Assembly (NCBI RefSeq): GCF_053078305.1
Contig: NZ_CP166879.1
Length of the DNA stretch: 64,000 nt
Direction: 5' to 3' (one strand)
A program made the position numbers and the translations under genes. Numbering within the stretch: position 1 is the stretch's first letter; the number at the start of each line of letters is the position of its first letter. Shown in pieces: positions 28,455-43,020 of this stretch. The notes under the pieces were generated by a model that saw only the letters and a program-made list of their open reading frames with translations, was not told where the DNA came from and did no database searches.

Positions 28455-28530
28455 TCGGGTCCTTTCCGGCATATGGACCCGTTACGGGGCGGCGACCTCG
28501 CGGATTTTCACTATTTATGAAAATTTTCCG
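28455..28530 (+). other. Lambdoid cos site (cosN GGGCGGCGACCT at 28487-28498 plus flanks)
   Basis: ACGGGGCGGCGACCTCGCGG..TTTATGAAAATTTTCC matches lambda cos; CCGGACATG repeats downstream. Confidence 0.65.
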
Positions 28531-28681
28531 GGATCCATGTCCGGTTTCTCTGCAAGTTAACCATATGAAAAATATAAAAACATGCTTTCCATGAACCGGA
28601 CATGCGCAAAAAATAGACACTAAAACCGGACATGACCGGTTTTGTTGTGATTGTGAGGTGAGAGTTTTTGCGAGGTGAGGA

Positions 28682-29191
28682 GTGGCTACGCAGACTGAAG
28701 TTGCCAGGCATTTAAGTCTGACCGATCGCCAGCTTCGCAGATTGCAGAAATTGCCGGGTGCCCCGATATCGAATAAGCGAGGGCAACTGGATCTGGATGC
28801 CTGGCGCGATTTTTACATATCGTATCTGAGAAGAAGTAAAAACGATGTGCCTGATGGCGATAGCGAAGACGACTATGAGGAGAAATTGCTTATTGCCAGA
28901 TGGGAACTGACAGCAGAACAGGCTGTTACACAGCAGTTAAAAAATGAGGTGTCAAAAGGAAAACTTATTGACACCGGGTTCTGTATTTTTGCCCTCAGCA
29001 AGCTGGCAATGGCGTTATCCAGTACGCTTGATTCCATCCCTTTATCCATGCAGCGACAGTTTCCTGATTTAACACCGCGCCATCTTGACCATCTGAAAAC
29101 CCTTATTGCGAAGGGGGCAAATCAGTGTGCGCGGGCGGGGGATAAATTACCGGATTTACTCGATGAATATATCAGAGCAACAACTGAATAA
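28682..29191 (+). CDS. Terminase small subunit (Nu1-like)
   Basis: ...FCIFALSKLAMALSSTLDSIPLSMQRQFPDL... resembles lambda Nu1. Confidence 0.8.
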   Translation: MATQTEVARHLSLTDRQLRRLQKLPGAPISNKRGQLDLDAWRDFYISYLRRSKNDVPDGDSEDDYEEKLLIARWELTAEQAVTQQLKNEVSKGKLIDTGFCIFALSKLAMALSSTLDSIPLSMQRQFPDLTPRHLDHLKTLIAKGANQCARAGDKLPDLLDEYIRATTE

Positions 29192-31091
29192 TATGATGAG
29201 CGCTGTCACAACAGCATTACAGCCCCTGATAAGGGCATTGCCGGTGACGCCAGTTGAATGGGCTGATCAAAATTATTATCTGCCTAAAGAATCTTCATAT
29301 GGTGAGGGAGAATGGAAAACGCTGCCGTTCCAGATCGCCATCATGAACAGCATGGGGAATGATCAGATCCGGACTGTTAATCTGATTAAATCTGCCCGTG
29401 TTGGCTATACAAAGATGTTGCTGGGAGTCGCCGGGTATTTTATTGAGCATAAATCCCGAAACAGTCTGCTTTTTCAGCCCACGGATTCTGCCGCTGAAGA
29501 TTTTATGAAGTCTCACGTGGAGGCGACGATTCGCGATGTTCCCTGCCTGAAAAAACTTTCTCCCTGGCTGGGACGTAAACATCGTGATAATACCATCACG
29601 CTGAAACGCTTTTCATCGGGTGTGGGTTTCTGGTGCCTGGGTGGTGCGGCAGCAAAAAACTACCGTGAAAAATCCGTGGATGTGGTCTGCTATGACGAGC
29701 TTTCCTCGTTCGAGCCGGATGTTGAAAAAGAGGGCTCGCCAACCCTGCTGGGGGATAAGCGTATTGAGGGCTCGGTATGGCCAAAATCCATTCGCGGCTC
29801 GACGCCAAAAATAAAAGGTTCCTGCCAGATCGAAAAAGCGGCCAACGAGTCGGCGCATTTTATGCGTTTTTATGTGCCCTGCCCACACTGCGGGGAGGAG
29901 CAGTATCTGAAATTTGGCGATGAGTCCACGCCTTTTGGCCTTAAATGGGAGAAGGACAGCCCCGAAAGCGTTTTCTACCTCTGTGAACATCATGGCTGCG
30001 TGATCCATCAGTCTGAGCTTGACCAGAGCAACGGGCGGTGGATCTGTGAAAACACGGGGATGTGGACCCGTGATGGTCTGACGTTTTTCAGCGCTGCGGG
30101 TAATGAAATTCCACCGCCGCGCTCCATCACGTTCCACATCTGGACGGCGTACAGTCCGTTCACCACCTGGGTACAGATAGTCTATGACTGGCTGGATGCA
30201 CTGAAAGATCCCAACGGCGTGAAAACCTTTGTGAACACCACGCTGGGCGAGACCTGGGAAGAGGCCGTGGGCGAAAAACTCGATCACCAGGTGCTGATGG
30301 ATAAGGTTGTGCGTTACACAGCGGCGGTGCCTGCCCGGGTGGTTTATCTGACGGCGGGTATTGACTCGCAGCGAAACCGTTTTGAGATGTATGTCTGGGG
30401 ATGGGCTCCGGGAGAGGAAGCCTTTCTGGTGGATAAAATCATCATTATGGGGCGTCCCGATGAGGAAGAGACGCTGTTACGTGTGGATGCGGCGATCAAC
30501 AAAAAATACCGCCATGCAGACGGAACCGAAATGACCATTTCCCGTGTCTGCTGGGACACAGGGGGGATCGATGGCGAAATTGTCTATCAGAGGTCAAAAA
30601 AACACGGTGTTTTCCGGGTGCTGCCGGTAAAAGGTGCATCTGTTTATGGCAAGCCGGTGATCACCATGCCAAAAACCCGCAATCAGCGGGGCGTGTATCT
30701 GTGCGAAGTGGGGACGGACACCGCAAAAGAAATTCTCTATGCCCGTATGAAAGCCGATCCCACGCCTGCGGATGAAGCCACGTCGTATGCCATCCGTTTT
30801 CCTGATGATCCGGAGATTTTTTCGCAGACAGAGGCGCAGCAACTGGTGGCGGAAGAGCTTGTGGAGAAGTGGGAAAAAGGAAAGATGCGTCTGCTGTGGG
30901 ATAACAAAAAGCGGCGTAACGAAGCGCTGGACTGCCTGGTGTATGCCTACGCGGCATTACGTGTGTCCGTGCAACGCTGGCAGCTTGATCTGGCTGTACT
31001 GGCAAAATCCCGGGAAGAAGAGACGACCCGGCCAACCCTTAAAGAACTGGCAGCGAAGCTGTCCGGAGGAGTGAATGGTTACAGTCGCTGA
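29163..31091 (+). CDS. Terminase large subunit (gpA-like)
   Basis: MNISEQQLN...VEWADQNYYLPKES... collinear with lambda gpA. Confidence 0.85.
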   Translation: MNISEQQLNNMMSAVTTALQPLIRALPVTPVEWADQNYYLPKESSYGEGEWKTLPFQIAIMNSMGNDQIRTVNLIKSARVGYTKMLLGVAGYFIEHKSRNSLLFQPTDSAAEDFMKSHVEATIRDVPCLKKLSPWLGRKHRDNTITLKRFSSGVGFWCLGGAAAKNYREKSVDVVCYDELSSFEPDVEKEGSPTLLGDKRIEGSVWPKSIRGSTPKIKGSCQIEKAANESAHFMRFYVPCPHCGEEQYLKFGDESTPFGLKWEKDSPESVFYLCEHHGCVIHQSELDQSNGRWICENTGMWTRDGLTFFSAAGNEIPPPRSITFHIWTAYSPFTTWVQIVYDWLDALKDPNGVKTFVNTTLGETWEEAVGEKLDHQVLMDKVVRYTAAVPARVVYLTAGIDSQRNRFEMYVWGWAPGEEAFLVDKIIIMGRPDEEETLLRVDAAINKKYRHADGTEMTISRVCWDTGGIDGEIVYQRSKKHGVFRVLPVKGASVYGKPVITMPKTRNQRGVYLCEVGTDTAKEILYARMKADPTPADEATSYAIRFPDDPEIFSQTEAQQLVAEELVEKWEKGKMRLLWDNKKRRNEALDCLVYAYAALRVSVQRWQLDLAVLAKSREEETTRPTLKELAAKLSGGVNGYSR

Positions 31092-31281
31092 ACTGCAGGC
31101 GCTGCGTCAGGCGCGCCTTGATTTATTAACCGGTAAACGGGTGGTGTCTGTCCAGAAAGATGGTCGCAGAATTGAATATACGGCGGCCTCTCTGGATGAG
31201 CTTAACCGTGCGATCAATGATGCTGAGTTGGTACTGGGGACAACCCGCCGTCGCCGTCGTCCGCTGGGAGTGAGGTTATGA
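31075..31281 (+). CDS. Head-tail joining protein (gpW-like)
   Basis: 68 aa; ...LTGKRVVSVQKDGRRIEYTAASL... Confidence 0.8.
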   Translation: MVTVAELQALRQARLDLLTGKRVVSVQKDGRRIEYTAASLDELNRAINDAELVLGTTRRRRRPLGVRL

Positions 31282-32150
31282 AACGAACGCCTGTCCTGAT
31301 TGATGTGAACGGCGTTCCGCTTCGGGAGAGCCTAAGCTACAACGGGGGCGGCGCAGGATTTGGCGGGCAAATGGCAGAGTGGTTGCCACCCTCGCAGAGT
31401 GCCGATGCGGCCCTGCTGCCCGCGTTGCGTCTGGGGAATGCCCGTGCAGATGATCTGGTGCGCAATAACGGAATAGCGGCCAATGCGGTGGCCCTGCATA
31501 AGGATCACATTGTCGGGCATATGTTTCTGATTAGCTACCGTCCGAACTGGCGCTGGCTGGGGATGCGGGAGACCGCGGCAAAAAGTTTTGTCGATGAGGT
31601 GGAGGCGGCCTGGTCAGAATACGCAGAAGGGATGTTTGGTGAGATCGACGTGGAAGGGAAACGCACGTTTACGGAATTTATCCGTGAAGGTGTGGGCGTT
31701 CATGCGTTTAACGGCGAAATCTTTGTGCAGCCGGTCTGGGATACGGAGAGCACGCAACTGTTTCGTACGCGTTTTAAAGCCGTGAGTCCGAAACGGGTGG
31801 ACACGCCAGGACACGGTATGGGGAACCGTTTTCTGCGGGCCGGTGTGGAGGTCGATCGATATGGTCGTGCCGTTGCGTACCATATCTGTGAGGATGATTT
31901 TCCTCACTCCGGGAGTGGACGATGGGAACGGATCCCGCGTGAACTTCTCACCGGGCGTCCGGCCATGCTGCATATTTTCGAGCCGGTGGAGGACGGGCAG
32001 ACCCGTGGGGCCAATCAGTTTTACAGCGTCATGGAACGGCTGAAGATGCTCGATTCCCTGCAGGCAACACAGCTTCAGTCGGCCATTGTTAAAGCCATTT
32101 ATGTCTATCATCTCCCCGTAGTTGTCCGCATCGTTCGCCAACTCCACTGA
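31278..32150 (+). pseudogene. Portal protein (gpB-like), N-terminal ~275 codons, interrupted near 32102
   Basis: Portal homology stops at ...QSAIVKAIY; the last 16 codons are read-through into inserted DNA. Confidence 0.75.
32091..32103 (+). repeat. Left att core AAAGCCATTTATG
   Basis: Direct repeat of 43930-43942 (one mismatch). Confidence 0.5.
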
Positions 32151-32225
32151 AACCCTTGCTGCGGCTGGAATGTCGTTTTCCATACTTTTGATGACCGTTC
32201 ATCACACTTCCAGGTTTTCGCGGTT

Positions 32226-32285
32226 TTGTGTATTGCAATGTGTATTGCAAATTGGCGATCGGGATGGGTGTGTATTGCAAATCTC
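32226..32285 (+). repeat. Three TGTGTATTGCAA repeats (putative integrase arm sites)
   Basis: Same motif occurs twice at 43838-43862 near the other junction. Confidence 0.4.
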
Positions 32286-32298
32286 TTGAGGGCTGTTA

Positions 32299-33540
32299 AT
32301 GGCTATTGAAAACAAACTCAGTGACAAACTGTTAAAGAGTCTTGTCGGAAAACGGCAGGACAAACAAAAAACAATAGCGGATGGGCGCGGGTTGTCTGTG
32401 CGTGTAAGCATGGTTGGGGGGATCAGCTTTGTTTTTTACTATCGTCTTGGTGGCAGGGAATCCCCTCCGGTATGGCTTACACTTGGGCGCTATCCTGATA
32501 TGTCTCTTGCAACAGCCAGGCGCATGCGTGATCAGTGCCGTGAGTGGCTGGCTGAAAATCTGGACCCCCGCAGGCAAATAAAACTTGCCGCCGAAAAAAC
32601 CATGCAACCAGTGACCGTAAGGGATGCGCTGTTTTACTGGTACGACAATCACGCCACAACAGCCAGAAAAGAGCATGAATATTTAATAAAACGATTTGAA
32701 AAGCATATCTTCCCCTATATCGGTGATATGGCTATAGAACAGTGCAAATTACACACATGGCTTGCCGTCTTTGACAGGATCAAAAAAAATGCGCCTGTTA
32801 TGTCTGGTGCAATTTTTCTTGATATCAAACAGGCGTTGCGTTTTTGTCGCGTCAGGCAATACATCGCGTGCGATCCCTTTGGCGATATTAACGTAAGTTA
32901 TGTCGGGCGCTCATCCGGTATAAGGGATCGCGTTCTTAATATCAATGAAACAGCGGATGTATGGTCTTATGCTTACGGTAATAATTTGCTGACACTGTCA
33001 TCAATACATAACAGAAGAATAATGGTTATCTGCCTGGTGTTTGGTTGCCGTCAGCAGGAGGCGAGGTTATCCACATGGGACGAATGGGATTTAAAAAACT
33101 GGGTATGGACAGTCCCAAAAGAGCACAGCAAAAACAAGGAGGCCATAGTAAGGCCTGTTCCTGACGGCATAAAACAATGGCTCGTTAATCTTTACGCAGA
33201 AACAAAAAATCGCGGTTATGTTGTCGGTTGTGCTTTGCAAAGGGCGACAATAACAGGGGCTGCAAACAGAATATGCAGGCGTCTTGGTCATGATATTAAT
33301 GGCTTGTGGTGCATACATGATTTCAGGCGCACATTTTCCACTGCGCTTAATGATATGGGGGCGGATCCTTATATTGTCGAACTTCTTTTAGGTCATAAAG
33401 TGAAAGGGGTTGCCGGTGTTTACAATAAAAGCAGGCATATAAAGAAAAAACTTGAGGTGCTTAATATGTGGGTTAATTACCTTAATACGATAGCAGGATT
33501 TAACAACAACGTTATCGAGCTTAATAAAGAGGTGGTGTGA
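32299..33540 (+). CDS. int: P4-type tyrosine integrase
   Basis: 413 aa; N-terminal LSDKLLKSL...GRGLSVRV arm-binding domain; C-terminal ...LLGHK...VYNKS. Confidence 0.85.
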   Translation: MAIENKLSDKLLKSLVGKRQDKQKTIADGRGLSVRVSMVGGISFVFYYRLGGRESPPVWLTLGRYPDMSLATARRMRDQCREWLAENLDPRRQIKLAAEKTMQPVTVRDALFYWYDNHATTARKEHEYLIKRFEKHIFPYIGDMAIEQCKLHTWLAVFDRIKKNAPVMSGAIFLDIKQALRFCRVRQYIACDPFGDINVSYVGRSSGIRDRVLNINETADVWSYAYGNNLLTLSSIHNRRIMVICLVFGCRQQEARLSTWDEWDLKNWVWTVPKEHSKNKEAIVRPVPDGIKQWLVNLYAETKNRGYVVGCALQRATITGAANRICRRLGHDINGLWCIHDFRRTFSTALNDMGADPYIVELLLGHKVKGVAGVYNKSRHIKKKLEVLNMWVNYLNTIAGFNNNVIELNKEVV

Positions 33541-33541
33541 T

Positions 33542-33799
33542 ATGGCAATTTATTCTCTTGTTGATGAAAACGATTTGCGCACAATGAAGGACATTGATCG
33601 GTTCATTCGTGAAAAAGAGTGCATAGCACTTACCACGCTGGCAAACTCAACACGCTGGAAAATGGAGCAGGCAGGTAAATTCCCGCGACGTATCAAGATC
33701 GGTGAACGTGCGGCAGGGTATCGACTTTCAGAGGTTCAGGCATGGATCCGTGGTGAGTGGCATCCTGGATGGAAACCTGGAAAAACAAAACAGCAATAA
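33542..33799 (+). CDS. alpA: AlpA-family regulator / excisionase
   Basis: 85 aa; directly after int. Confidence 0.7.
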   Translation: MAIYSLVDENDLRTMKDIDRFIREKECIALTTLANSTRWKMEQAGKFPRRIKIGERAAGYRLSEVQAWIRGEWHPGWKPGKTKQQ

Positions 33800-33853
33800 C
33801 CAGTAAATAACGCCCCTCATCAAGAGGGGTTTTTGTCTATAGGGTAAAACGCG

Positions 33854-34432
33854 ATGAATAAAAATATTGCCGTGACGGGCAAGGGGTACGCTCGTCCAGT
33901 GAAAAAATTCTGTGATATTCGTGATCTTGTCGTTCTGCGCTTTGATGGTGTGAGCGTTCGCGTGGTGTATGTGAACGGCGATCCGTGGTTTGTTGCCGTT
34001 GACGTGTGCGCTGCGCTGGAAATTGTTGATCACAAGGTTGCGTTACGCCGTCTCGATGATGATGAAAAGGGGGAGTGTTTAATACCCACCCCAGGTGGAA
34101 ATCAAACAATGCGAACGGTATGCGAGTCAGGGTTCTACAAACTAATCGCCAGAAGTCGGAAAGCTGTTACTCCTGGCACGTTCGCCCGTCGTTTCAGTAA
34201 CTGGGTATTCAGAAATGTGATACCAGGTATCAGAAAAACGGGGGCTTATGGTATCCCGTGGGGGGCATTACAGGATTTTTCCCGCCGTAAAGAGCAATAT
34301 CAAATAAGTGCCAGCGAGAAGGGGAGGGAGCTACAGGCATGTAAGCGCAAAAAACGTGAACTGGAGGAAGAAGAAAAAAGGCTGATACGTGAATATCAGC
34401 CTGAGTTTTACTTTGGTGAGCGTATTCAGTAA
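33854..34432 (+). CDS. Bro-N-domain protein (antirepressor-like)
   Basis: ...VVYVNGDPWFVAVDVCAALEI... Bro-N signature. Confidence 0.65.
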   Translation: MNKNIAVTGKGYARPVKKFCDIRDLVVLRFDGVSVRVVYVNGDPWFVAVDVCAALEIVDHKVALRRLDDDEKGECLIPTPGGNQTMRTVCESGFYKLIARSRKAVTPGTFARRFSNWVFRNVIPGIRKTGAYGIPWGALQDFSRRKEQYQISASEKGRELQACKRKKRELEEEEKRLIREYQPEFYFGERIQ

Positions 34433-34895
34433 CCACACGCGGTGCTGATTATACGGTACATCGTGTTAACCGAGAAGCTACCCACCAGCAAGGCAAAATC
34501 TTCTGCTAAAAAATGACATATGGCCAGTCGTCCGGAAAGCATGAAATTTTACAAAAATGGAAAATGAAGATTTTTATTGTGCTGGTGGGTAAAAACAAAA
34601 AGCGCCCCGTTGCCGGAGCGCCCTTGTGAACAATTAACCTGCTGCGAAAAAATTGGATCAGTGCAGGGAAATTATATCAACTGTGTGAAGAAGCGCCACA
34701 ATTGCCAGTTTAGCTTTGCGGCGAACGCGTCAATAAAGAATATTCTTTCTTTAAATTCTGTTTGTGTATTTTTTCGTAGTTTTTCGTAGTTTTTCGTAAG
34801 GAGAAAGAGCGGCGCGTATGCACCGCTAAGGAGTTTATTTTCATGACTTATGCAGCTTTCAATCTTAGCACCGCCGTAGCTGGTGGACAAGGCTA

Positions 34896-35123
34896 TCAGC
34901 CAGGCGGTCGGTTTTTAGTGGCTTTTAACCGCCGTGGGTATTTCTCGACAAAATCTTCAAGGGCAAATTTTTCTGGTGGCACTAAGCGCGGCGCTGGTGG
35001 TGGTATTTTTGTTCTGGTTAGTTCTTCCTCAAGTCTGGCGCAGGCTTCTAACTGCCTTTGCCGGATGATTTCATCATCTTGCGTTTGCGTGTCTTGTATT
35101 GGTGATAGTGTGTTGTTGGTCAT
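34896..35123 (-). CDS. Hypothetical protein
   Basis: 75 aa ORF downstream of putative repressor; weak. Confidence 0.3.
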   Translation of the reverse strand: MTNNTLSPIQDTQTQDDEIIRQRQLEACARLEEELTRTKIPPPAPRLVPPEKFALEDFVEKYPRRLKATKNRPPG

Positions 35124-35180
35124 GATACTGCCCTGTAAAGCAATGCGCCGGAGTACCTCACGCCACGGCGCTGATAGTGA

Positions 35181-36237: not shown

Positions 36238-36484
36238 AACCACACCGGACGCAGCCGCCGCGCTCACTACACTGATGCACGCGCTGATTGATATTTCTGT
36301 TATTGCTGACAGGGCGCATAAGCACGCCACCAGTGAAACAGAATATGCCGGGGCTTTCGTTCCTCATTCGCTGGCGGTTATGCAACTTAGTGCTGATATG
36401 GCGCTGAATGAGGCCAAAGCTATCCTGATTTCTGATTGTGAAAATGGGGGGGGGTTATGCGTGATGATCGTTTTAATGCCCTGA
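36227..36484 (+). CDS. Hypothetical protein
   Basis: 85 aa, CAGGAGG RBS. Confidence 0.35.
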   Translation: MCNKTTPDAAAALTTLMHALIDISVIADRAHKHATSETEYAGAFVPHSLAVMQLSADMALNEAKAILISDCENGGGLCVMIVLMP

Positions 36485-36678
36485 AACAGGAGTTTGATGG
36501 TGCGCCTGATGATGCAGGTGATGCGCTTTCGTCAATATCCGAACTGATAAGAGTGGCCTTTTTCTTACTTGGCACGAAAGAATATAAATCAACTGGAATA
36601 GACGTACTGAATATTACTGCTGATTATGCGGAATATATGGCAGAAGTGGATTTAAGAAAGATAACGGACAGGGGGTAA
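36457..36678 (+). CDS. Hypothetical protein
   Basis: 73 aa, coupled. Confidence 0.35.
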   Translation: MRDDRFNALKQEFDGAPDDAGDALSSISELIRVAFFLLGTKEYKSTGIDVLNITADYAEYMAEVDLRKITDRG

Positions 36679-36679
36679 T

Positions 36680-36913
36680 ATGCGTGATATTTACCACGAA
36701 ACAATAGACCGCGCATTTAGTGCCCTTGCTTACGCTGAAGGTATGTACGAAATATTGCAAATGTGTCTGGAAACATTTGGCGATAATGAGCGTGATGTAA
36801 AGAAGGCGCGGATTATTAAATCACTGATAACTCTCCTTGAACCTGTAATAACAGAGTTGCAGGAAATAGACTTATTGCACGACAGATATAACGAACAGCA
36901 CACCGGAGAATAA
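36680..36913 (+). CDS. Hypothetical protein
   Basis: 77 aa, coupled. Confidence 0.4.
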   Translation: MRDIYHETIDRAFSALAYAEGMYEILQMCLETFGDNERDVKKARIIKSLITLLEPVITELQEIDLLHDRYNEQHTGE

Positions 36914-36918
36914 AAATA

Positions 36919-37218
36919 ATGAAACTTAAATATCCTGGCTTAACTGCCAGTGGCAACACTCACCCTAAATTTACGCGCGGTGATATTTACCGCGACCAGT
37001 ACGGCGGCACGGTAATGATTAAGGGCGTGGCGGGACGGTGCGTAACTTACCGCCGTGAAGGCTACGAATATGATTGCGTGATGCCTGTTTATCAGTTCCG
37101 GCGTGATTTTTCTCTGGTACAGACCGCGCCGCATAACGTGCCCACCAGCAACGCCAGGGCACGGGCAAACATCCAGAAGCTGAAAACCATGATTAACGGA
37201 TTCAGGGGTAAAAAATGA
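36919..37218 (+). CDS. Hypothetical protein
   Basis: 99 aa, stop overlaps helicase start. Confidence 0.4.
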   Translation: MKLKYPGLTASGNTHPKFTRGDIYRDQYGGTVMIKGVAGRCVTYRREGYEYDCVMPVYQFRRDFSLVQTAPHNVPTSNARARANIQKLKTMINGFRGKK

Positions 37219-38624
37219 AACTGGCACCGAACGTAAAACGATTACCGAAAGATAAATACACCGAAGCGGTTATTTTTGCGGGTATTGATGCTCACTCATT
37301 CGCAGAGCATTACATCATTGCACAGGCCAAAAAAGCAGGCGATCCAGTCCCTCCCGTTTATCTGGGGCGTTATCAGTTAAGCGAACTGGATAACCTCCAG
37401 ATTGTTGATGATGGGCGATACAGGGCGACGGTGATACGCGCCGGAAATATTGAAGAGCCGCAGCTGTTAACCATCGCCACGAAACTGGCGAGCGCCGGAG
37501 TCCAGGAGGCGCGGCTACTTTCTGAAAATTTCGAATTGCTGGAGGAATGGAGCGACCAGCTTCCACGGCTTAGGGAGGCATGGGAACGCGGGGAAAGCCT
37601 GGTCATGAAAAAAATTCCCCAGCGAAAAACCACGCTACCGATGAGCGTTGGATCTACCGGATACGACACACAGCTTGATTACGTGGTAAAGGGGATTATT
37701 CCGGCATCGTCGCTTTGCAGCATATACGGGGCGAGCGGTTCCTATAAATCATTCCTTGCCGGATCGTGGGCGTGTCACGTTTCCACGGGCCGCCAGTGGG
37801 GAGGCCGCAGGGTGGCGCATGGCGCTGTTCTCTATGTGGTTGGTGAAGGCGGTATCGGCGTTCCGCGTCGTGTAAAAGCCTGGGAGGTTGTGCACGGTGA
37901 GCAGGTGAAAAATCTGTATCTGGTAAACCGTCCCATCTTTCCGGCTGTCCCGCTTGATGTTGATGAACTGGTTATTGCTGCCAGTCAGGTGGAGAGGGAA
38001 ACGGGTAAACCTGTTCGCATGATTATTCTGGACACGCTGGCGCGTTGCTTTGGCGGCAATGATGAAAATGACTCCCGCGACATGGGGGCATTTATCCGTG
38101 GTTGTGACGAGCTTAAACGGCGCACAGGGGCTACGGTGCTGGTGGTTCACCATTCCGGCAAGGATGAAACAAAGGGGGCGCGTGGTTCCAGTGCATTTCG
38201 TGCATCACTGGACGCTGAATACCGGATACGCAGGGAGGACGCAGGAAGCGAAGCGCTGGTTATCTCATGCACCAAAATGAAGGACGCGGAGGAACTCAAA
38301 GAGGCTGCCTATGATTTGCGGGTGGTGGAGCTTTTTACCGACGCTGACGGGGAGTTAATTACGTCGCTGGTGGTGGTGGATAAGCCGCGCCCTCCCGTTG
38401 AACTGGAGCGCATCGAGGAGGCAGGCAACAAGACGGAAAACCATACCGCGCTATGGGGGTGCATCCGTTCACGCACACAGAACGGCGACAAGTGCACGAT
38501 CCCGCTGTTACGTGACGATATGAAAAAGCTGGGGTATGACACAAAACACCTTAAACGATGGTTAGCCAAACTGGAAAAAGACGACGTGATCTACATTGAC
38601 GGTGATGATGTAGGACCACTGTAA
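37215..38624 (+). CDS. Replicative ATPase/helicase (RecA/DnaB-like NTPase domain)
   Basis: 469 aa; Walker A GASGSYKS, Walker B ILDTL, ...VVHHSGKDETKGARGSSA... Confidence 0.75.
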   Translation: MKLAPNVKRLPKDKYTEAVIFAGIDAHSFAEHYIIAQAKKAGDPVPPVYLGRYQLSELDNLQIVDDGRYRATVIRAGNIEEPQLLTIATKLASAGVQEARLLSENFELLEEWSDQLPRLREAWERGESLVMKKIPQRKTTLPMSVGSTGYDTQLDYVVKGIIPASSLCSIYGASGSYKSFLAGSWACHVSTGRQWGGRRVAHGAVLYVVGEGGIGVPRRVKAWEVVHGEQVKNLYLVNRPIFPAVPLDVDELVIAASQVERETGKPVRMIILDTLARCFGGNDENDSRDMGAFIRGCDELKRRTGATVLVVHHSGKDETKGARGSSAFRASLDAEYRIRREDAGSEALVISCTKMKDAEELKEAAYDLRVVELFTDADGELITSLVVVDKPRPPVELERIEEAGNKTENHTALWGCIRSRTQNGDKCTIPLLRDDMKKLGYDTKHLKRWLAKLEKDDVIYIDGDDVGPL

Positions 38625-38826
38625 AAAGTGGGCATTAAAAGTGGGAAAGGTGGGCGATTTAACGTAATTTTAACAAAATCACCCACTTTCCCACGTGTAT
38701 ATATCCCAAAAAGTGGGCACTAAAAAAATACCTATGAAACAAGATGATATAAATCCCAAACTTCCCACGTTGGACGAAGTGGGAAAACGTAAAAAGTGGG
38801 CGAAAAAAGTGGGTAGAGGTGGGCGA
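38625..38826 (+). repeat. Iteron array (AAGTGGG-type repeats), putative satellite ori
   Basis: About nine AAGTGGG / CCCACTT copies immediately downstream of helicase gene. Confidence 0.5.
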
Positions 38827-39078
38827 ATGACTCAAAAACACAGAGACAGAACAGAGCCAAAATATAAAGCGTTAGACATGACAGAGCACGCTTTAAAGGT
38901 GGCAATCAGGGTAATAGACCGCCACACGCGGGAAGGATACGCGAAGGAACATCCCGACCTGATAAGCGCATTCATGACCACAGCGGCGGCAAACTTTGCC
39001 ACGCTGACAGAACGGGAGATAGCCGAAGCGGAACAGGTAACAACCATCAACGTTAAAACCGGAGAGGTGGAATCATGA
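38827..39078 (+). CDS. Hypothetical protein
   Basis: 83 aa from MTQKHRDR; upstream part of tracked ORF lies on iterons and is rejected. Confidence 0.35.
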   Translation: MTQKHRDRTEPKYKALDMTEHALKVAIRVIDRHTREGYAKEHPDLISAFMTTAAANFATLTEREIAEAEQVTTINVKTGEVES

Positions 39079-39485
39079 CAGCACAGATAGCCGCTTACGG
39101 GCGGCTGGTGGACGACCCGCAGGTAAAACAAACCAGCAAGGGCACACCGATGACGCTGGCGCGTATGGCGGTATCTCTGCCATGCAGCCAGGCACAGGAC
39201 GGGCAGGCTACGTTATGGCTATCAGTGATGGCATTTGGTAAGCAGGCCGACTTCCTGGCTAAACATCAAAAAGGCGATGTTGCCAGCGTATCCGGCACGA
39301 TGCAGGTAAGCCAGTGGACCAGACAGAACGGGGAAACGCGGCAGGGTTATCAGGTTATTGCAGACAGTGTAATCAGTGCCCGTGCTGCCCGTCCTGGCGG
39401 GAGCAGACGTACAACCACAGGCACACAGGGTAATCAGCCACCAGCGGGAGGCGATGACCCTTACGGTGACGGTATTCCGTTCTGA
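39075..39485 (+). CDS. SSB-like single-strand DNA-binding protein
   Basis: OB-fold-like N-terminus, Gly/Pro-rich tail ending DDPYGDGIPF. Confidence 0.55.
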   Translation: MTAQIAAYGRLVDDPQVKQTSKGTPMTLARMAVSLPCSQAQDGQATLWLSVMAFGKQADFLAKHQKGDVASVSGTMQVSQWTRQNGETRQGYQVIADSVISARAARPGGSRRTTTGTQGNQPPAGGDDPYGDGIPF

Positions 39486-39495
39486 GGGGGTGACG

Positions 39496-39768
39496 ATGGT
39501 ACATGACCGCATAGCGGAGGAACTCGAGGCAAAAGGCTTTTACCGGAGGGCGGCGGCGCGATGGGGTGAAGTTATGCAGCTGGTGGAGACAGACAAGGAA
39601 CGGCATCAGGTTACGATGCGACGGCTGGAATGTTCCAGGAAGGCACAGAGGCCACCGGAGCCGCCGGATAACTTCGGAGACCTGAAAAAAGCAGTAGATC
39701 GCACTTATGCCGAAATGGGTATGGATGGTGTAAGCGATGAAATATGGCGTAATTACCCAGACAGCTAA
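39496..39768 (+). CDS. Hypothetical protein
   Basis: 90 aa, GAGGGGG RBS. Confidence 0.35.
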   Translation: MVHDRIAEELEAKGFYRRAAARWGEVMQLVETDKERHQVTMRRLECSRKAQRPPEPPDNFGDLKKAVDRTYAEMGMDGVSDEIWRNYPDS

Positions 39769-39774
39769 TCAACA

Positions 39775-39846
39775 GCCGGAGAAATCCGGCTTTTTTGTAC
39801 CCAAAAAAAGCCCGATAAGTACAGGAGGCATCTTATCGGGCTTTTG
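39775..39846 (+). terminator. Two tandem intrinsic terminators ending the replication operon
   Basis: GCCGGAGAAATCCGGC+U6 and GCCCGATAAG...CTTATCGGGC+U4. Confidence 0.5.
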
Positions 39847-40007
39847 CATATGAGGTTTTTTTGGTGCACTGACACACATGATCGGGGTAATCATTTCATA
39901 ATTTGCAACACAACTCAACATCATTGCACAAAATGCAATCCTGATTATAATCAGAGCTGGATGAACATCCAGTTCTGATTTTTTAAGTCAAAGAGGAATT
40001 TCTTACT

Positions 40008-40214
40008 ATGGCTGAAGAGAAAAAAGGCGGTGTTTCGGTGTACATAAGCCCCGAAATCGTGGAGGTGCTCAAGCAGCGCCACAAAAAAAACTATGAGGCT
40101 GGCGTAGCGGCTGGACTGGATCCGCTGATGACGCCGGAGCCGTCGATAGGTTCACTTGTGCGCTCTTATTTACTTGCGGCGCTTGGGATGCATAAAAATT
40201 ATGGTGGTGAATAA
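40008..40214 (+). CDS. Hypothetical protein preceding capsid gene
   Basis: 68 aa, AGAGGAA RBS. Confidence 0.4.
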   Translation: MAEEKKGGVSVYISPEIVEVLKQRHKKNYEAGVAAGLDPLMTPEPSIGSLVRSYLLAALGMHKNYGGE

Positions 40215-41269
40215 TGACAGTAAAAGCAATGGCACTTACAACTAACCAGCTTTTCGCGTACCTGAATCGCGGGGATATTGCAGAATTTAAATTCAGTCCG
40301 CTGTTTACCACGCTGTTTTTCCCGAACGTGGCGACCTTCAACACCCAGAACATCATGCTGGACACCCTGGACATTGAAGAGGTTACGATGTCAGCGTTCT
40401 GTTCGCCTATGGTGGGTAGTCAGGTCCAGCGCGATAAAGGGTACGAAACCAGCACGATTAAACCAGGCTACATGAAACCCAAACACGAAATCGATCCAAC
40501 AAAAACCATCATGCGCATGGCTGGAGAAGATCCGGCACAGCTTAACGACCCTACCTACCGCCGTATGCGCCTGATTACTGGCAACATGCGCCGCCAGATA
40601 AACGCCATTAAAGCGCGCGTGGAATGGCTGGCGGTGAATGCGATAACGACCGGAAAAAACATCATTGAGGGCGAAGGCATAGAACGCTATGAAATCGACT
40701 GGAAAATACCGGAAAACTGCATCATAGAGCAGGCCAAGGGTAAAAAATGGTCCGAGCATGATAAAGATATTTACGATCCAATCTATGACATCGAACTATA
40801 CGCAGATCAGGCAGGTTGCCCCGCCAACGTCATGATTATGGGCGCTGAGGTATGGCGCACGTTACGCAGCTTTAAAAAATTCCGCGAACTGTACGATCTT
40901 TCCCGTGGTTCAGAATCCGCCGCAGAACTGGCCTGTAAAAACCTGGGTGAAGTAGTGAGCTTTAAAGGCTATCTGGGCGATATTGCCCTTATCGTCTATT
41001 CCGGCAAATACACTGACAGCGACGGTACCGAAAAATATTTCCTTGAGCCTGATTTGCTGGTCCTGGGTAACACCAACAATAAAGGGCTGGTGGCCTATGG
41101 TGCGATTATGGATCAGGAAGCGGTAAGAACGGGCGCAACGCAAAACATGTTCTACCCGAAAAACTGGATTGAAGACGGCGATCCGGCGATTGAGTACGTT
41201 CAGACGCACAGCGCACCGCAGCCGGTACCGGCAGATATTCGCAAATTTGTTACCGTCAAAATTGCTTAA
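40214..41269 (+). CDS. Major capsid protein paralog (gpE-like) encoded by satellite
   Basis: Shares blocks PGYMKPKHE, GEDPAQLNDP.YRR, VVSFKGY.GD.A.VV, DGTEKY with prophage E at 46646. Confidence 0.8.
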   Translation: MTVKAMALTTNQLFAYLNRGDIAEFKFSPLFTTLFFPNVATFNTQNIMLDTLDIEEVTMSAFCSPMVGSQVQRDKGYETSTIKPGYMKPKHEIDPTKTIMRMAGEDPAQLNDPTYRRMRLITGNMRRQINAIKARVEWLAVNAITTGKNIIEGEGIERYEIDWKIPENCIIEQAKGKKWSEHDKDIYDPIYDIELYADQAGCPANVMIMGAEVWRTLRSFKKFRELYDLSRGSESAAELACKNLGEVVSFKGYLGDIALIVYSGKYTDSDGTEKYFLEPDLLVLGNTNNKGLVAYGAIMDQEAVRTGATQNMFYPKNWIEDGDPAIEYVQTHSAPQPVPADIRKFVTVKIA

Positions 41270-41280
41270 CGGGGGATTCT

Positions 41281-41616
41281 ATGGACACTCCATACATTGA
41301 GTTATTTGCAGGCAGTCAGCAGGTATCCACGACGCTGGTACATTTTGCCGCTGATGCTGGCGTTATTCAGGAATTTACCCCGCTGATGCTGGCGGACAAT
41401 GGCGAGTTTAAGCCGTGGGATGGTCAGGAATCTGGCAAGGCTGTTTATCTGACCTCGTACCCCGTGGACACGTCAAAGCAGAAATCAGCACAGTGTTACA
41501 AGACGGGGATATTTAATATCGCCGCCGTAAACTGGCCTGAGAGCGCCGACACTGACGCGAAAAAATGCGCCGCCTTTGCGGGTTCTGGCGTATCCGTTCA
41601 GCCGCTGGCGCGATAA
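41281..41616 (+). CDS. Head decoration protein paralog (gpD-like)
   Basis: 111 aa; TPLMLADNG..KPWDGQ and YKTGIF motifs shared with prophage D. Confidence 0.7.
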   Translation: MDTPYIELFAGSQQVSTTLVHFAADAGVIQEFTPLMLADNGEFKPWDGQESGKAVYLTSYPVDTSKQKSAQCYKTGIFNIAAVNWPESADTDAKKCAAFAGSGVSVQPLAR

Positions 41617-41628
41617 GCAGGGGAAACG

Positions 41629-42042
41629 ATGGCAACGAATGAAAGCATCATGGCGCTACCGCTGGCGAGTAAATTTAAAGCAGAAGCGCGGGCAATGGCT
41701 GACAGAGGTTTATCAACCTACGAGGCCGTATATCAACTCAACAAACTGGAAGAGCAGGACAAGCCGCGCGCTGATGCGATTATGGCGCTTCATGAACATA
41801 ACGACTATCAGCCGCTGTTACGTGCAATGGCAAACGTGCCATGTATTAGCGTCGATAATGCTCGTGAAATCCTGAACATGACCATAGAGCAGGAGCGCCC
41901 AAAGGTTGCGCCGGAGCTTACCGCAGCCTTTGAAAACTTTATGGACATGCACAGCCCGAAAGCCGTATCACCCGGCATGGCATACGACGGCAGAAACCAG
42001 GGCGATGAAGGCGACGTCGATCGCATACTGAAAACCATCTGA
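41629..42042 (+). CDS. Scaffold-like protein (Nu3-like C-terminus)
   Basis: C-terminus ...AAFENFMDMHSPKAV... parallels prophage C/Nu3 tail ...ALFEHFMANHSPAAV... Confidence 0.5.
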   Translation: MATNESIMALPLASKFKAEARAMADRGLSTYEAVYQLNKLEEQDKPRADAIMALHEHNDYQPLLRAMANVPCISVDNAREILNMTIEQERPKVAPELTAAFENFMDMHSPKAVSPGMAYDGRNQGDEGDVDRILKTI

Positions 42043-42072
42043 CATAAGGCCGGAGAAATCCGGCTTTTTTTA

Positions 42073-42150
42073 CGGGTCCTTTCCGGCATATGGACCCGTT
42101 ACGGGGCGGCGACCTCGCGGTTTTTCGCTATTTATGAGCTTTTTTCGGGT
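42073..42150 (+). other. Satellite cos site (cosN 42104-42115)
   Basis: About 48 bp identical to prophage cos (GGGTCCTTTCCGGCATATGGACCCGTTACGGGGCGGCGACCTCGCGG), then divergent. Confidence 0.65.
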
Positions 42151-42236
42151 GCTGGTGGTGGTTTTGTTGTTCGCTCTATCTCTATGAATAAAAAGGGAAA
42201 GATAAAACCAATACACCAACCTGAAACATTACTTAA

Positions 42237-42791
42237 GTGGGGATATTGATGAAATCGCACCTGATGAACAAAAAAAACATGGCGCAAAGCTGCCGTGTAA
42301 GTGCGACAGCGTTCGACAAGTGGGGAGTGACTCCCGTTGAACGTAAAGGACGCGAGGCTTTTTACGATGTTGCCAGCGTGATAGACAATCGGGTAAGCAA
42401 TGCAATTAACCAGGTTACAAACGACAAAGGCGAGATTGATGATGATGAACTCTTACGAGTCAGGATCAGATTACTGACCGCCCAGGCTGAGGCGCAGGAA
42501 CTTAAAAACGAGCGCGATCGCGGTGACGTAATTGATACTGAGTTTTGCCTGTACGCGCTTTCAAAGCTGGCGAGTCAGATTTCTTCAATCATGGACAGTT
42601 TGCCGCTTACCATGCAAAGGCGCTTCCCGCAGATTACTCCCGCTATGCTGGATGGGCTTAAAAGGGAAGTGGTTAAAGCCTGTAATGCCAGTGCCACAGT
42701 TGCCGACAACCTCCCGAAGATACTGGCTGATTACCTGATGGAAACTACCGGAGACGTACCGGAGAAGTTGCTACAGAAGAAAGGCGAGTAA
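42237..42791 (+). CDS. Terminase small subunit homolog (Nu1-like; possible packaging redirector)
   Basis: ...FCLYALSKLASQISSIMDSLPLTMQRRFPQI... parallels Nu1. Confidence 0.65.
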   Translation: MGILMKSHLMNKKNMAQSCRVSATAFDKWGVTPVERKGREAFYDVASVIDNRVSNAINQVTNDKGEIDDDELLRVRIRLLTAQAEAQELKNERDRGDVIDTEFCLYALSKLASQISSIMDSLPLTMQRRFPQITPAMLDGLKREVVKACNASATVADNLPKILADYLMETTGDVPEKLLQKKGE

Positions 42792-42959
42792 CAGACGCGC
42801 AATTATTGAACAAAAGTAAGGCCCGACATGAAATCACCCAAAAATGCCTTTTTCATGCGTTTGTATGTCTGACCTTTTACGGTTTCGATATTATAAAAAA
42901 CAAATAGTTACGCTCGAGAGGTACCGACACGCATTTTTCAGGAAAATTTTCATAAACAG

Positions 42960-43020
42960 ATAAAAACCGCGAGGTCGCCGCCCCGTAACGGGCCATAATT
43001 CCAGGAAGGACCCGACGACA
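42960..43020 (-). other. Second, inverted cos-like site (cosN complement 42972-42983)
   Basis: Minus strand reads CCCGTTACGGGGCGGCGACCTCGCGG...TTTATGAAAATTTTCC. Confidence 0.5.

What the first reader, a model, noticed from the sequence alone, without database searches (positions are those of the whole stretch)
28455..43020. Three cos sites: helper cos, an identical cosN copy in the satellite, and a second inverted cos in the satellite
Prophage cos (28487-28498 core) and satellite cos (42104-42115) share about 48 identical bp around cosN, but the downstream cosB-like regions differ; the satellite has its own Nu1-like gene right after its cos. A further cos-like sequence lies in inverted orientation at 42960-43020, so the TerS-like gene is bracketed by inverted cos copies. 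This fits redirection of helper terminase; the inverted copy could be a decoy or a recombination scar.
Basis: partly seen in the sequence, partly recalled or inferred. Interest (0 to 1): 0.6.

Follow-up and report, generated by a model that had tools for sequence, protein, structure and literature searches.

The report
Two-cos packaging module of embedded satellite
A small satellite element sitting inside the portal gene of a lambda-like prophage carries two opposed copies of the phage DNA-packaging site around its own small-terminase gene, an arrangement already published for the E. coli island EcCICFT073; here the second copy turns out to be a complete packaging site of a different phage type (phage 21).

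Summary
Three lambda-type cos sites exist: helper cos (cosN 28487-28498), a direct satellite copy (42104-42115; 48 bp identical to the helper) and an inverted satellite copy (cosN 42972-42983, minus strand). The last two bracket a full-length Nu1-family terS (42249-42791).

The satellite (32099-43937) is a helper-embedded PICI in the prophage portal gene, a configuration published in 2023. Its packaging module has the same layout as EcCICFT073 cos1-rppA-cos2 (published 2018/2019), with terS in place of rpp.

Points I did not find in the papers read:
- The inverted cos is a complete phage-21-type cos (R4/cosQ, cosN, I2, R3, I1, R2, R1).
- The "divergent" cosB of EcCICFT073 cos2 is 91-98% identical to this window's prophage cosB.
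- In all 54 paired modules (52 IMG/VR loci plus the window and EcCICFT073) the two cos sites carry different cosB classes.
- The segment between the cos cores is swapped between satellites and is found in both orientations.
- Some second cos sites have a different cosN.
- Nine close embedded relatives lack the inverted copy.

Most likely mechanism (inferred, not shown): satellite TerS plus helper TerL act at the private cos, and the inverted cos is a route for helpers of another specificity. It is a new member of a known kind, of moderate interest.

The parts
28450..28645 (+). Helper prophage cos ('cos1'). Sub-sites: cosQ GGGTCCT 28457-28463; cosN 28487-28498; I2-like 28516-28529. cosB of class 'X' has R-like boxes CATGTCCGGTTT at 28536-28547, inverted copies at 28594-28604 and 28624-28634, and ATGACCGGTTTT at 28632-28643.
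   Evidence: The cosB is 91-98% identical to the cosB of EcCICFT073 cos2.
28682..29191 (+). Helper small terminase (169 aa, Nu1 family, distinct N-terminal DNA-binding region).
   Evidence: PHROG 57/1790. 48% identical to the satellite TerS over the C-terminal 115 aa only.
29106..31091 (+). Helper large terminase (gpA-like). The likely start is MNISEQQ at about 29163.
   Evidence: ORF list. N-terminus aligns with lambda gpA.
31278..32098 (+). 5' part of the helper portal gene B, interrupted by the satellite. The 3' part is 43938-44709.
   Evidence: TIGR01539 portal_lambda matches profile positions 1-244 in the left ORF and 239-457 in the right ORF. Joining at the AAAGCCAT cores gives one 530-aa ORF.
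32099..43937 (+). Helper-embedded PICI satellite, 11,839 bp, co-oriented with the helper late operon. att cores AAAGCCAT lie at 32091-32098 and 43930-43937.
   Evidence: Gene content: int 32299-33540; AlpA-like 33542-33799; Bro/anti-repressor 33854-34432 and 34843-36237; isrK 35806-35882 plus C4 RNA 35904-35991; primase/helicase 37215-38624; SSB 39075-39485; major capsid 40214-41269; head decoration 41281-41616; 137-aa protein 41629-42042.
32228..32248 (+). Doubled motif GTGTATTGCAATGTGTATTGC. The second copy is at 43835-43855. This is not the att core.
   Evidence: D7. It matches the HE-PICI attP motif tgTGTATTGCantgTGTATTGCa at the published spacing (PMC10111431).
42049..42071 (+). Terminator-like hairpin GCCGGAGAAATCCGGC plus a T run, directly upstream of the satellite direct cos. 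An identical copy lies at 39775-39796.
   Evidence: (D6).
42067..42248 (+). Satellite direct cos ('cos2', equivalent to EcCICFT073 cos1). cosQ 42074-42080; cosN 42104-42115. The private cosB has an R3-like box TGGTGGTGGTTT at 42153-42164 (positions +50 to +61 from cosN) and an inverted related box CCAATACACCAACC at 42208-42221.
   Evidence: The box is in the same register as the phage N15 R3 GGTTGTTGTTTAAT. This cosB class accompanies all 24 terS cassettes.
42249..42791 (+). Satellite small terminase, 180 aa from the ATG (ORF listing gives 184 aa from the GTG at 42237). Full-length Nu1 family, including the C-terminal region that binds TerL in lambda.
   Evidence: PF07471; PHROG 57. 35-40% identical to the helper TerS, lambda Nu1 and phage 21 gp1, and 14% to RppA. 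Best phage relative is N15 gp1 at 46%. dN/dS 0.11-0.18 against six relatives; intact in 24/24.
42818..43014 (-). Satellite inverted cos ('cos3', equivalent to EcCICFT073 cos2): a complete phage-21-type cos. R4/cosQ 43014-43003; cosN 42983-42972; I2 42954-42940; R3 42934-42919; I1 42912-42898; R2 42876-42861; R1 42833-42818.
   Evidence: 80% identity to the phage 21 cos segment over 172 nt (H18). Sub-sites were mapped on the annotated features of M81255: R1 16/16, R3 13/16, R2 13/16, I2 13/15, I1 12/15.
43048..43329 (+). Conserved 93-aa satellite gene (PHROG 1561, function unknown), the right-hand neighbour of the packaging module.
   Evidence: It is homologous to the gene after cos2 in EcCICFT073.

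Best explanation
The 11.8-kb element is a helper-embedded PICI inserted in portal gene B of a lambdoid prophage. Its packaging module is the EcCICFT073-type two-cos module, with a full-length Nu1-family terS where EcCICFT073 has rppA.

All three cos sites keep the same cosQ and the same 12-nt cosN. A lambda-type large terminase could therefore nick any of them. Specificity lies in cosB, which differs at each site.

1. The helper TerS reads the helper cosB (class X).
2. The satellite TerS has an N15-gp1-like DNA-binding end and a helper-like C-terminal end. It is inferred to bind the private, N15-like R3 box next to the direct cos and to recruit the helper's TerL. This would divert packaging to satellite concatemers without helper TerS.
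3. The inverted cos is a complete phage-21-type cos. It is inferred to let lambdoid phages of that other specificity package the satellite with their own unmodified terminase, in the opposite direction.

Inferred reason for the opposed orientation: termination needs cosQ ahead of cosN. Each packaging series would then end only at a like-oriented cos, and every particle would receive a whole genome. Direct repeats would instead lose the cassette by recombination, or by start-at-one, stop-at-the-other packaging.

A shown side effect: the segment between the cos cores is exchanged between satellites and is found in both orientations.

Shown here: the anatomy, the homologies, the distribution, the class combinations and the inversions. 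Inferred: the protein-DNA and TerS-TerL pairings, and use of the inverted cos by other helpers.
For: - **Identity of the element.** The portal gene is split and is restored in silico. The HE-PICI doubled motif is present. Gene zones match the published layout.
- **Same module as EcCICFT073.** CFT073 has cosN at 2559 (+), rppA at 2660-3094 and cosN at 3298 (-). Homology between the two satellites stops at 42147 and resumes at 42943, i.e. at the cos cores. The published cos1 is the copy directly upstream of rppA.
- **Published function.** Both EcCICFT073 cos sites allow transduction of a plasmid. RppA-TerS reads the cosB of cos1 only.
- **TerS paired with the direct cos.** The cosB class next to terS is the same in 24/24 cassettes, while the far cosB varies among three classes. 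The TerS DNA-binding motif AFDKWGV.PVE and the R3-like box both resemble N15. N15 cosB is R3-only (PMC9026076).
- **TerL recruitment.** The C-terminal region is retained, unlike in Rpp. It is closest to the resident helper TerS: 18/42 identical, against 13/41 for lambda and 13/37 for phage 21.
- **Independence from helper cosB.** The same satellite lineage (integrase 99-100% identical) sits in helpers with lambda-type, X-type or N15-type cosB.
- **The inverted cos is a real cos of another specificity.** All phage 21 sub-sites are present.
- **The second cos is not a scar.** EcCICFT073 cos2 cosB equals this window's prophage cosB. The two cosB classes differ in 54/54 paired modules. Gene-less cassettes carry an X-type plus an N15-type cos. 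In L105 and L080 the second cos has a different cosN. L033 carries a captured phage left end, including 24 codons of an X-type terS.
Against: - There is no experiment on this element.
- The TerS-TerL fit rests on 43% identity over about 42 residues.
- Nine embedded relatives with near-identical integrase, and six PICIs in the wider sample, have terS with a single cos. L003 shows a partial deletion of the inverted cos. The inverted cos is therefore dispensable.
- Deleting the equivalent cos2 in EcCICFT073 increased transfer by lambda and phi80. No helper that needs it has been shown.
- The 21-like cosB is only 77% identical to phage 21 overall, and R3 and R2 each differ at 3 of 16 positions.
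- In no composite examined does a satellite cos match the resident helper's cosB. The proposed alternative helper is therefore hypothetical here.
- The 21-like version of the inverted cos was seen only in this genome, in two copies of the satellite.
- The resident helper is also interrupted by a Mu-like prophage in its gpZ-like gene.
Confidence: 0.55

Rival explanations
1. The inverted cos is a passenger left by the way packaging cassettes are captured and exchanged. These routes are recombination or cohesive-end joining at the conserved cos cores. It has no selected role in packaging.
For: - Homology breakpoints between satellites fall exactly in the cos cores.
- Cassettes are inverted between otherwise collinear satellites.
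- L033 carries a captured phage left end with a terS fragment.
- Single-cos terS satellites are common among the closest embedded relatives.
- Deleting cos2 improved EcCICFT073 transfer.
Against: - All sub-sites of a phage 21 cos are retained; R1 is 16/16.
- Each alternative class keeps mutually consistent R boxes.
- The partner classes are never the same, 54/54.
- The pair is present in 52 of 80 sampled loci; about 13 of the 80 could not be scored because the contig ends or the downstream stretch does not align.
- The cloned EcCICFT073 cos2 is functional.
Confidence: 0.2
2. The inverted cos is a decoy or interference device. It attracts the terminase of competing 21-type phages and causes cuts or opposed packaging runs that waste their packaging capacity.
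For: - It has a phage-type cosB that does not match the resident helper.
- PICIs of this family are known to interfere with helper packaging.
- Its removal changes transfer efficiency in EcCICFT073.
Against: - Initiation at an intact cos on a replicating satellite concatemer would package satellite DNA. That is transfer rather than waste.
- Plasmids carrying cos2 are transduced.
- Interference in this family is already explained by Rpp.
- A single copy per 11.8 kb is a weak sink.
Confidence: 0.1
3. The inverted cos pair is an inversion switch. Flipping the cassette turns terS on or off relative to late transcription and swaps which cos faces which way, giving two packaging states within a population.
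For: - The gene-less 536-bp cassette is found in both orientations: 4 versus 4 loci, plus one 542-bp variant in the second orientation. Reverse-complement identity is 98-99.6%, with collinear flanks.
- A terS-bearing cassette is inverted between L087 and L088.
Against: - In this family, all 44 cassettes that carry terS or rpp have the gene co-oriented with the late genes. This points to rare events filtered by selection, not frequent switching.
- No invertase gene is nearby.
- The arms share only 26-48 bp of uninterrupted identity.
Confidence: 0.1

Closest known systems
EcCICFT073 cos1-rppA-cos2 packaging module (Fillol-Salom et al. 2018, PMC6092414; 2019, PMC6739421)
   Same: The flanking genes are the same (major capsid, head decoration, 137-aa protein on the left; 93-aa gene on the right). 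One cos lies directly upstream of the specificity gene and an inverted cos lies downstream. cosQ and cosN are shared with lambdoid helpers, and both cosB sequences differ from the helper.
   Different: The gene slot holds a full-length Nu1-family TerS with its C-terminal region, instead of the shorter Rpp (14% identity). The private cosB is N15-like. The second cosB is 21-like here and X-type in CFT073.
Helper-embedded PICIs (Tommasini, Mageeney, Williams 2023, PMC10111431)
   Same: Integrated in, and co-oriented with, lambdoid late gene B. The doubled TGTATTGC motif is at the published spacing. The zones match: int/AlpA, Bro with C4-type RNA, replication, and late genes including a capsid gene.
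   Different: That paper's model element 11capE lacks terS and shares 258 bp of cos, cosB included, with its helper. This element has its own terS, and neither of its cosB sequences matches the helper. The paper's cos discussion, as found by term search, covers only this shared 258-bp sequence.
TerS-encoding E. coli PICIs EcCIIHE3034 and EcCI18098 (PMC6092414)
   Same: They are described as E. coli PICIs that encode a TerS.
   Different: Their sequences were not compared here. They showed little or no transfer in that study, and their helpers are unknown.
Phage N15 gp1 and its R3-only cosB
   Same: N15 gp1 is the closest phage relative of the satellite TerS (46%), with a shared motif AFDKWGV.PVE. 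The R3-type box sits at the same distance from cosN.
   Different: The box differs at two positions (TGGTGGTGG versus AGGTTGTTG). N15 cosN differs (GGGCGGCGTCCG).
Phage 21 cos (M81255) and CFT073 prophage 4
   Same: The inverted cos has the same order and spacing of R4, cosN, I2, R3, I1, R2 and R1.
   Different: It has no phage-21-type terminase gene behind it. It abuts the 3' end of the oppositely oriented satellite terS. cosB identity is 77%.
SaPI terminase redirection (SaPI TerS with pac; cos SaPIs such as SaPIbov5; SaPIbov4 with two putative cos sites)
   Same: A satellite-encoded small terminase pairs with the helper large terminase, and/or the satellite carries a copy of the helper cos. 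PMC6092414 mentions that SaPIbov4 has two putative cos sites.
   Different: Gram-positive elements with unrelated sequences and headful or HNH-dependent cos systems. This comparison rests on general knowledge and the cited text, not on a test here.

Membership tests
Helper-embedded PICI (HE-PICI) | [quoted passage not shown] | tested here: met
   The portal profile TIGR01539 is split at about position 240. Joining at the AAAGCCAT cores gives a 530-aa ORF.
Helper-embedded PICI (HE-PICI) | Doubled motif tgTGTATTGCantgTGTATTGCa on both sides of the attP core at fixed spacing | tested here: met
   Copies at 32228-32248 (about 133 bp from the attL core) and 43835-43855 (about 85-95 bp from the attR core).
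Helper-embedded PICI (HE-PICI) | Zones: int plus AlpA; Bro proteins with repressor RNA; replication; late genes | tested here: met
   PHROG hits. Rfam isrK and C4 at 35806-35991.
Helper-embedded PICI (HE-PICI) | Induction, excision and transfer dependent on the helper | not testable with these tools
   This needs induction experiments.
EcCICFT073-type two-cos packaging module | cosQ and cosN as in lambdoid helpers, cosB different from the helper | tested here: met
EcCICFT073-type two-cos packaging module | One cos directly upstream of the specificity gene and a second cos downstream in the opposite orientation, between the 137-aa and 93-aa genes | tested here: met
   Same layout in CFT073 and in 52 of 80 related loci.
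EcCICFT073-type two-cos packaging module | Specificity gene is rpp (short, lacks the TerL-binding end, works as a heterodimer with helper TerS) | tested here: not met
   The gene is a full-length Nu1 homologue, 14% identical to RppA. The module is the same; the specificity factor is of another type.
Lambda-like cos site (applied to the inverted copy) | cosQ, cosN with the 12-nt end, and cosB with R3, IHF site, R2 and R1 in phage order | tested here: met
   Aligned to the annotated phage 21 features.
Lambda-like cos site (applied to the inverted copy) | Cut by terminase and used to start or end packaging | not testable with these tools
   Only the EcCICFT073 equivalent has been tested.
Nu1-family small terminase (satellite TerS) | Match to Phage_Nu1 across the oligomerisation and C-terminal regions | tested here: met
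   PF07471, residues 33-149 on model positions 35-163 of 164. Alignment with lambda Nu1 and phage 21 gp1.
Nu1-family small terminase (satellite TerS) | Binds its own cosB and the helper large terminase | not testable with these tools
   Inferred from co-conservation with the adjacent cosB and from C-terminal similarity.
Capsid-forming PICI (cf-PICI) | Encodes all proteins for capsid formation and packaging (abstract of bioRxiv 10.1101/2022.09.08.507074); from general knowledge this includes TerL, portal and protease | tested here: not met
   No such ORFs between 32099 and 43937. Only a capsid protein, a decoration protein, a 137-aa protein and TerS are present.

The most novel reading that the evidence does not exclude
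The opposed cos pair is a modular, dual-specificity packaging cassette common to this whole PICI family. One cos is private, read through the satellite's own TerS or Rpp. The other is borrowed from a lambdoid phage of a different specificity class, sometimes with a different cohesive end. A satellite would thereby be mobilisable by two helper families. The shared cos cores act as joints at which cassettes are swapped and flipped. [quoted passage not shown]
Probability: 0.45. Interest if true: 0.6.

Novelty: new member of a known kind. Interest (0 to 1): 0.4.

Why it matters
Packaging-site choice decides which DNA leaves a cell in phage particles. These islands occur in roughly a tenth of complete E. 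coli genomes: 489 of 5,426 carry at least 80% of this module.

If the second cos is a route to a second family of helpers, the host and helper range of such islands is wider than transfer tests with one helper suggest. It would also turn an acknowledged open question about EcCICFT073 cos2 into simple deletion and helper-swap experiments.

The element itself and the three-cos picture are not new.

Tried and rejected
- **Solved structures.** Sequence searches with both TerS proteins found nothing useful. NCBIfam gave no hit for the terminase, capsid or small satellite proteins; only the portal matched.
- **att core.** I first took the 21-nt direct repeat (32228/43835) as the att core. Joining there does not restore the portal. 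The real core is AAAGCCAT, and the repeat is the published arm-type doubled motif.
- **A third cosN-like hit.** An 11/12 match about 4 kb upstream in 17 related loci lies inside the primase gene. It has no cosQ, so I rejected it as chance.
- **Second cos versus a nearby helper in complete genomes.** The two loci fetched with wide flanks (H97, H100) were chromosomal PICIs with no prophage nearby. I switched to an integrase-based search of embedded relatives.
- **BLAST of cosB classes against the phage collection.** Results were weak: class 4 matched 73% to SerU-LTIIb, class 5 matched only over its R3 half, and class 6 had no hit. Class 6 was then recognised as N15-type by direct comparison, and in the helper of L098.
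- **Independence of loci.** L010 and L090 are the window itself, and L005 and L089 are a second copy in the same genome. They are not independent support for the 21-like version.
- **Not attempted.** No structure prediction; it would not decide the question.

Full report

Yes. The lambda cohesive-end sequence GGGCGGCGACCT occurs three times in the window: 28487 (+), 42104 (+) and 42972-42983 (-). About 0.3 matches are expected by chance, even allowing one mismatch.

- The first two copies align over 83 nt at 90% identity. They share an unbroken identical run of 48 bp (28456-28503).
- The third copy (42941-43015) is 85% and 82% complementary to the other two over 72-75 nt.
- All three keep the cosQ heptamer GGGTCCT, at 28457, 42074 and 43013-43007 on the minus strand.
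- Past the I2-like TTTATGA(A/G) stretch the three sequences diverge to 54-58% identity, which is background.
- The ORF between the two satellite copies (42249-42791) is a Nu1-family small terminase.

**2. What are the elements?**

*Helper.* The left cos belongs to a lambdoid prophage. It is followed by TerS (28682-29191), TerL, a gpW-like gene and a portal gene.

*Satellite insertion.* The portal gene is split. TIGR01539 matches profile positions 1-244 in the ORF ending at 32150 and positions 239-457 in the ORF 43876-44709. Joining the two halves at an 8-bp core AAAGCCAT (32091-32098 and 43930-43937) gives a single 530-aa portal ORF. The inserted element is therefore 32099-43937, 11,839 bp.

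*Satellite genes*:
- integrase and an AlpA-like excisionase/regulator
- two Bro/anti-repressor proteins, with isrK and C4 RNAs
- a primase-helicase, an SSB and a PerC-like activator
- a lambda-E-like major capsid protein and a D-like decoration protein
- a 137-aa protein, the terS module and a 93-aa protein

*Published equivalent.* This is the helper-embedded PICI configuration of Tommasini et al. (PMC10111431). The 21-nt repeat GTGTATTGCAATGTGTATTGC at 32228 and 43835 is their "doubled motif" at the published distances from the core. It is not the att core, as I first assumed. The element lacks TerL, portal and protease genes, so it is not a capsid-forming PICI.

**3. The packaging module is the published EcCICFT073 module.**

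In CFT073 (locus L001) the order of genes is the same: capsid, decoration, a 137-aa homologue, rppA, a 93-aa homologue. cosN lies at 2559 (+) before rppA and at 3298 (-) after it. The supplement of the 2019 paper prints both sites. cos1 is the copy directly upstream of rppA, and cos2 is the other.

Published results:
- Both sites allow plasmid transduction by lambda and phi80.
- cos1 is required for island transfer.
- The RppA-TerS heterodimer reads the cosB of cos1.
- Deleting cos2 increases transfer.
[quoted passage not shown]"

Neither the text of those papers nor the Murialdo and Feiss review (PMC9026076) discusses the orientation or the nature of the cos2 cosB.

The window satellite is about 92% identical to EcCICFT073 up to 42147, and about 84% identical again from 42943. 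The interval between the two cos cores is unrelated.

**4. The three cosB regions.**

- *Helper (class X).* The boxes are CATGTCCGGTTT at 28536, with inverted copies at 28594 and 28624.
- *Satellite inverted cos.* It matches the phage 21 cos segment at 80% over 172 nt. Mapped on the annotated features of M81255, it has R4/cosQ 10/12, I2 13/15, R3 13/16, I1 12/15, R2 13/16 and R1 16/16, in phage order and spacing. It is a complete phage-21-type cos with no 21-type terminase gene behind it. Its cosB runs up to the stop codon of the oppositely oriented terS.
- *EcCICFT073 cos2.* Its cosB was described as completely divergent. It is in fact 91-98% identical to this window's prophage cosB. The native helper of EcCICFT073, prophage 4, has a cos identical to phage 21. 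So in both genomes the satellite's second cos is a genuine phage cosB, but of a class other than the resident helper's.
- *Satellite direct cos.* Its cosB is short. It has TGGTGGTGGTTT at +50 to +61 from cosN and an inverted related box at 42208-42221. Phage N15 has GGTTGTTGTTTAAT in the same register, and N15 cosB is reported to be R3-only.

**5. The satellite TerS.**

- It is 35-40% identical to the helper TerS, lambda Nu1 and phage 21 gp1 over its full length, and 14% identical to RppA.
- Similarity to the helper TerS is confined to the C-terminal 115 residues (48%).
- Its best phage relative is N15 gp1 (46%), sharing the N-terminal motif AFDKWGV.PVE.
- Unlike Rpp, it keeps the C-terminal region that binds TerL in lambda. 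That region is closest to the resident helper's: 18/42 identical, against 13/41 for lambda and 13/37 for phage 21.
- It is intact in 24 of 24 relatives, with dN/dS of 0.11-0.18 against the six compared.

**6. Survey of relatives.**

Eighty IMG/VR loci were fetched through the 137-aa protein. Of these, 52 have the opposed cosN pair. Eleven more end too close to the contig edge to score, and two have unaligned sequence after terS.

With the window and CFT073 added, there are 54 paired modules. Cassettes between the cores fall into these classes:

| Cassette | Length (bp) | Count |
|---|---|---|
| Gene-less | 536-542 | 9 |
| Gene-less | 637 | 1 |
| RppA (144 aa) | 751 | 12 |
| Rpp (146 aa) | 771-772 | 8 |
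| TerS (180 aa) | 876-880 | 24 |

*cosB classes.* The cosB ends cluster into eight groups: the TerS-private class, 21-like, Rpp-private, X, a lambda-like variant (CAGATCCTTTCT boxes), a 21/lambda hybrid (CATGTCGTTTCT) and two N15-type groups.

*Pairings*:
- TerS-private with 21-like, lambda-variant or hybrid
- Rpp-private with X or N15-type
- X with N15-type in the gene-less cassettes

The two classes in a module always differ (54/54).

*Inversion.* The gene-less cassette occurs in both orientations. L013, L022, L030 and L031 have one orientation; L014, L016, L021, L029 and L066 have the other. Reverse-complement identity is 98-99.6%, the flanks are collinear, and the breakpoints lie inside the cos core. 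A terS-bearing cassette is likewise inverted between two satellites of a sister subfamily, L087 and L088. All 44 terS or rpp cassettes of the main family are co-oriented with the late genes.

*Variants without a standard pair*:
- Six terS loci have a single cos; the terS stop is followed after about 10 bp by the 93-aa gene.
- L003 has a partial deletion that leaves the cosQ half of the inverted cos.
- L033-type loci have one cos with X-type cosB and the first 24 codons of an X-type terS. This is a captured phage left end.
- In L080 and L105 the inverted cos has a different cosN from the direct one.

**7. Relation to the resident helper.**

A search with the integrase returned embedded relatives with 99-100% identical integrase, in portal genes of prophages with various packaging types:
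- true lambda Nu1, gpA and cosB (L089, L097, L102, L111 and others)
- X-type cosB (the window)
- N15-type cosB (L098)
- lambda-type cosB with a variant cosN, GGGCGGAAGGCG (L104, L112)

Nine of these satellites carry terS with a single cos. In no composite does a satellite cos carry the helper's cosB class.

L090 and L010 are the window itself (99.99% identity). L089 and L005 are a second copy of the same satellite, 99.76% identical over 11.6 kb. It lies in the same IMG genome, in the portal gene of a lambda-type prophage. The 21-like version of the inverted cos was seen only in these two copies.

**8. Mechanism.**

*Shown.* The anatomy, the homology to a functionally characterised module, the co-conservation of terS with the adjacent cosB, the diversity and internal coherence of the second cosB, and cassette exchange and inversion at the cos cores.

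*Inferred.*
- (a) The satellite TerS binds the private N15-like box and recruits the helper TerL. This would make packaging independent of the helper's TerS and cosB. It fits the same satellite lineage living in lambda-type, X-type and N15-type helpers.
- (b) The inverted cos lets phages of another specificity package the island with their own terminase, in the opposite direction.
- (c) The opposed orientation keeps genomes whole, because termination needs cosQ ahead of cosN (established lambda biology). Direct repeats would instead delete the cassette.

*Cost.* The rise in transfer when EcCICFT073 cos2 was deleted fits a cost of a second cuttable site when the helper in use does not need it. 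The frequent loss of the inverted cos among embedded relatives fits the same cost.

*Rivals.* A passenger of cassette capture (0.2), a decoy (0.1) and an inversion switch (0.1).

**9. Verdict.**

The finding is accurate and the general interpretation is sound. However, the helper-embedded satellite, the shared cosN with different cosB, and the two-cos layout are all published. The added value lies in four points:
- identifying the second cos as a complete cos of another phage class
- showing that EcCICFT073 cos2 carries an X-type phage cosB
- showing that the two classes always differ
- showing that the cassette is mobile and invertible

Together these make the open "why two cos sites" question directly testable. 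Novelty: new member of a known kind. Interest: 0.4.

Noticed in passing
window 48941-64000 (and the ORF 48471-48953): A Mu-like transposable prophage is inserted in the helper's gpZ-like gene. Its genes include a repressor-like ORF (49246-49764, minus strand), a MuA-like transposase (50184-52292), a MuB-like protein (52364-53296) and Gam (54650-55180). The gpZ-like gene ends prematurely at 48953, and the Mu-like end starts near 48941 (TGTAACCAGG...). The helper is thus interrupted twice and may be unable to make infectious particles.
   Followed up: partly
L089/L005 (IMGVR_UViG_2617271340_000010) versus window 31975-43537: The same genome holds a second copy of this satellite, 99.76% identical over 11,563 bp. 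It lies in the portal gene of a different prophage that has true lambda Nu1, gpA and cosB.
   Followed up: partly
L104 2310-2390 and 14560-14680; L112 6106-6181 and 18855-18975: In two embedded composites the helper cosN is GGGCGGAAGGCG while the embedded satellite keeps GGGCGGCGACCT. Satellite and resident helper do not even share the cohesive-end sequence. This is unexplained.
   Followed up: no
window 42153-42161 versus L001 2612-2620 (EcCICFT073 cos1, bp 55-63): The R3-like box of the satellite direct cos (TGGTGGTGG, +50 to +58) is the reverse complement of the proposed Rpp-binding R3-PICI core ACCACCACC (+55 to +63) of EcCICFT073 cos1. The two DNA-binding domains look unrelated. This may be coincidence.
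   Followed up: no
window 35806-35991 (+) and 6689-6877 (-): The satellite and the helper prophage each carry an isrK plus C4 antisense RNA pair, a P1/P7-type immunity RNA (Rfam). This suggests possible regulatory cross-talk between the two. DicF (7125-7176), sok (14216-14391), three tRNAs (19758-20006) and STnc100 (20837-21049) are also in the prophage.
   Followed up: no
window 39775-39796 and 42049-42070: Two identical terminator-like hairpins (GCCGGAGAAATCCGGC plus a T run) lie in the satellite late region. The second is immediately upstream of the direct cos and terS. terS expression may therefore need antiterminated read-through or its own promoter.
   Followed up: no
window 34990-35014 versus 42148-42172: A 25-nt sequence inside the Bro-zone ORF (GGCGCTGGTGGTGGTATTTTTGTTC) is 88% identical to the R3-like part of the direct cos cosB (D3). 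This may be chance or a second TerS-binding site.
   Followed up: no
L087 3421-3544 / 4337-4460; L088: A sister satellite subfamily uses another cosN (ACACCGGGGGTAGCCATACGCGC). It has the same opposed-cos layout around a 194-aa lambda/21-like terS. In E. coli U90 that terS lies on the strand opposite to the late genes.
   Followed up: partly
window 26580-27515: A DNA methyltransferase gene (PHROG 67) lies in the helper between the lysis region and cos.
   Followed up: no
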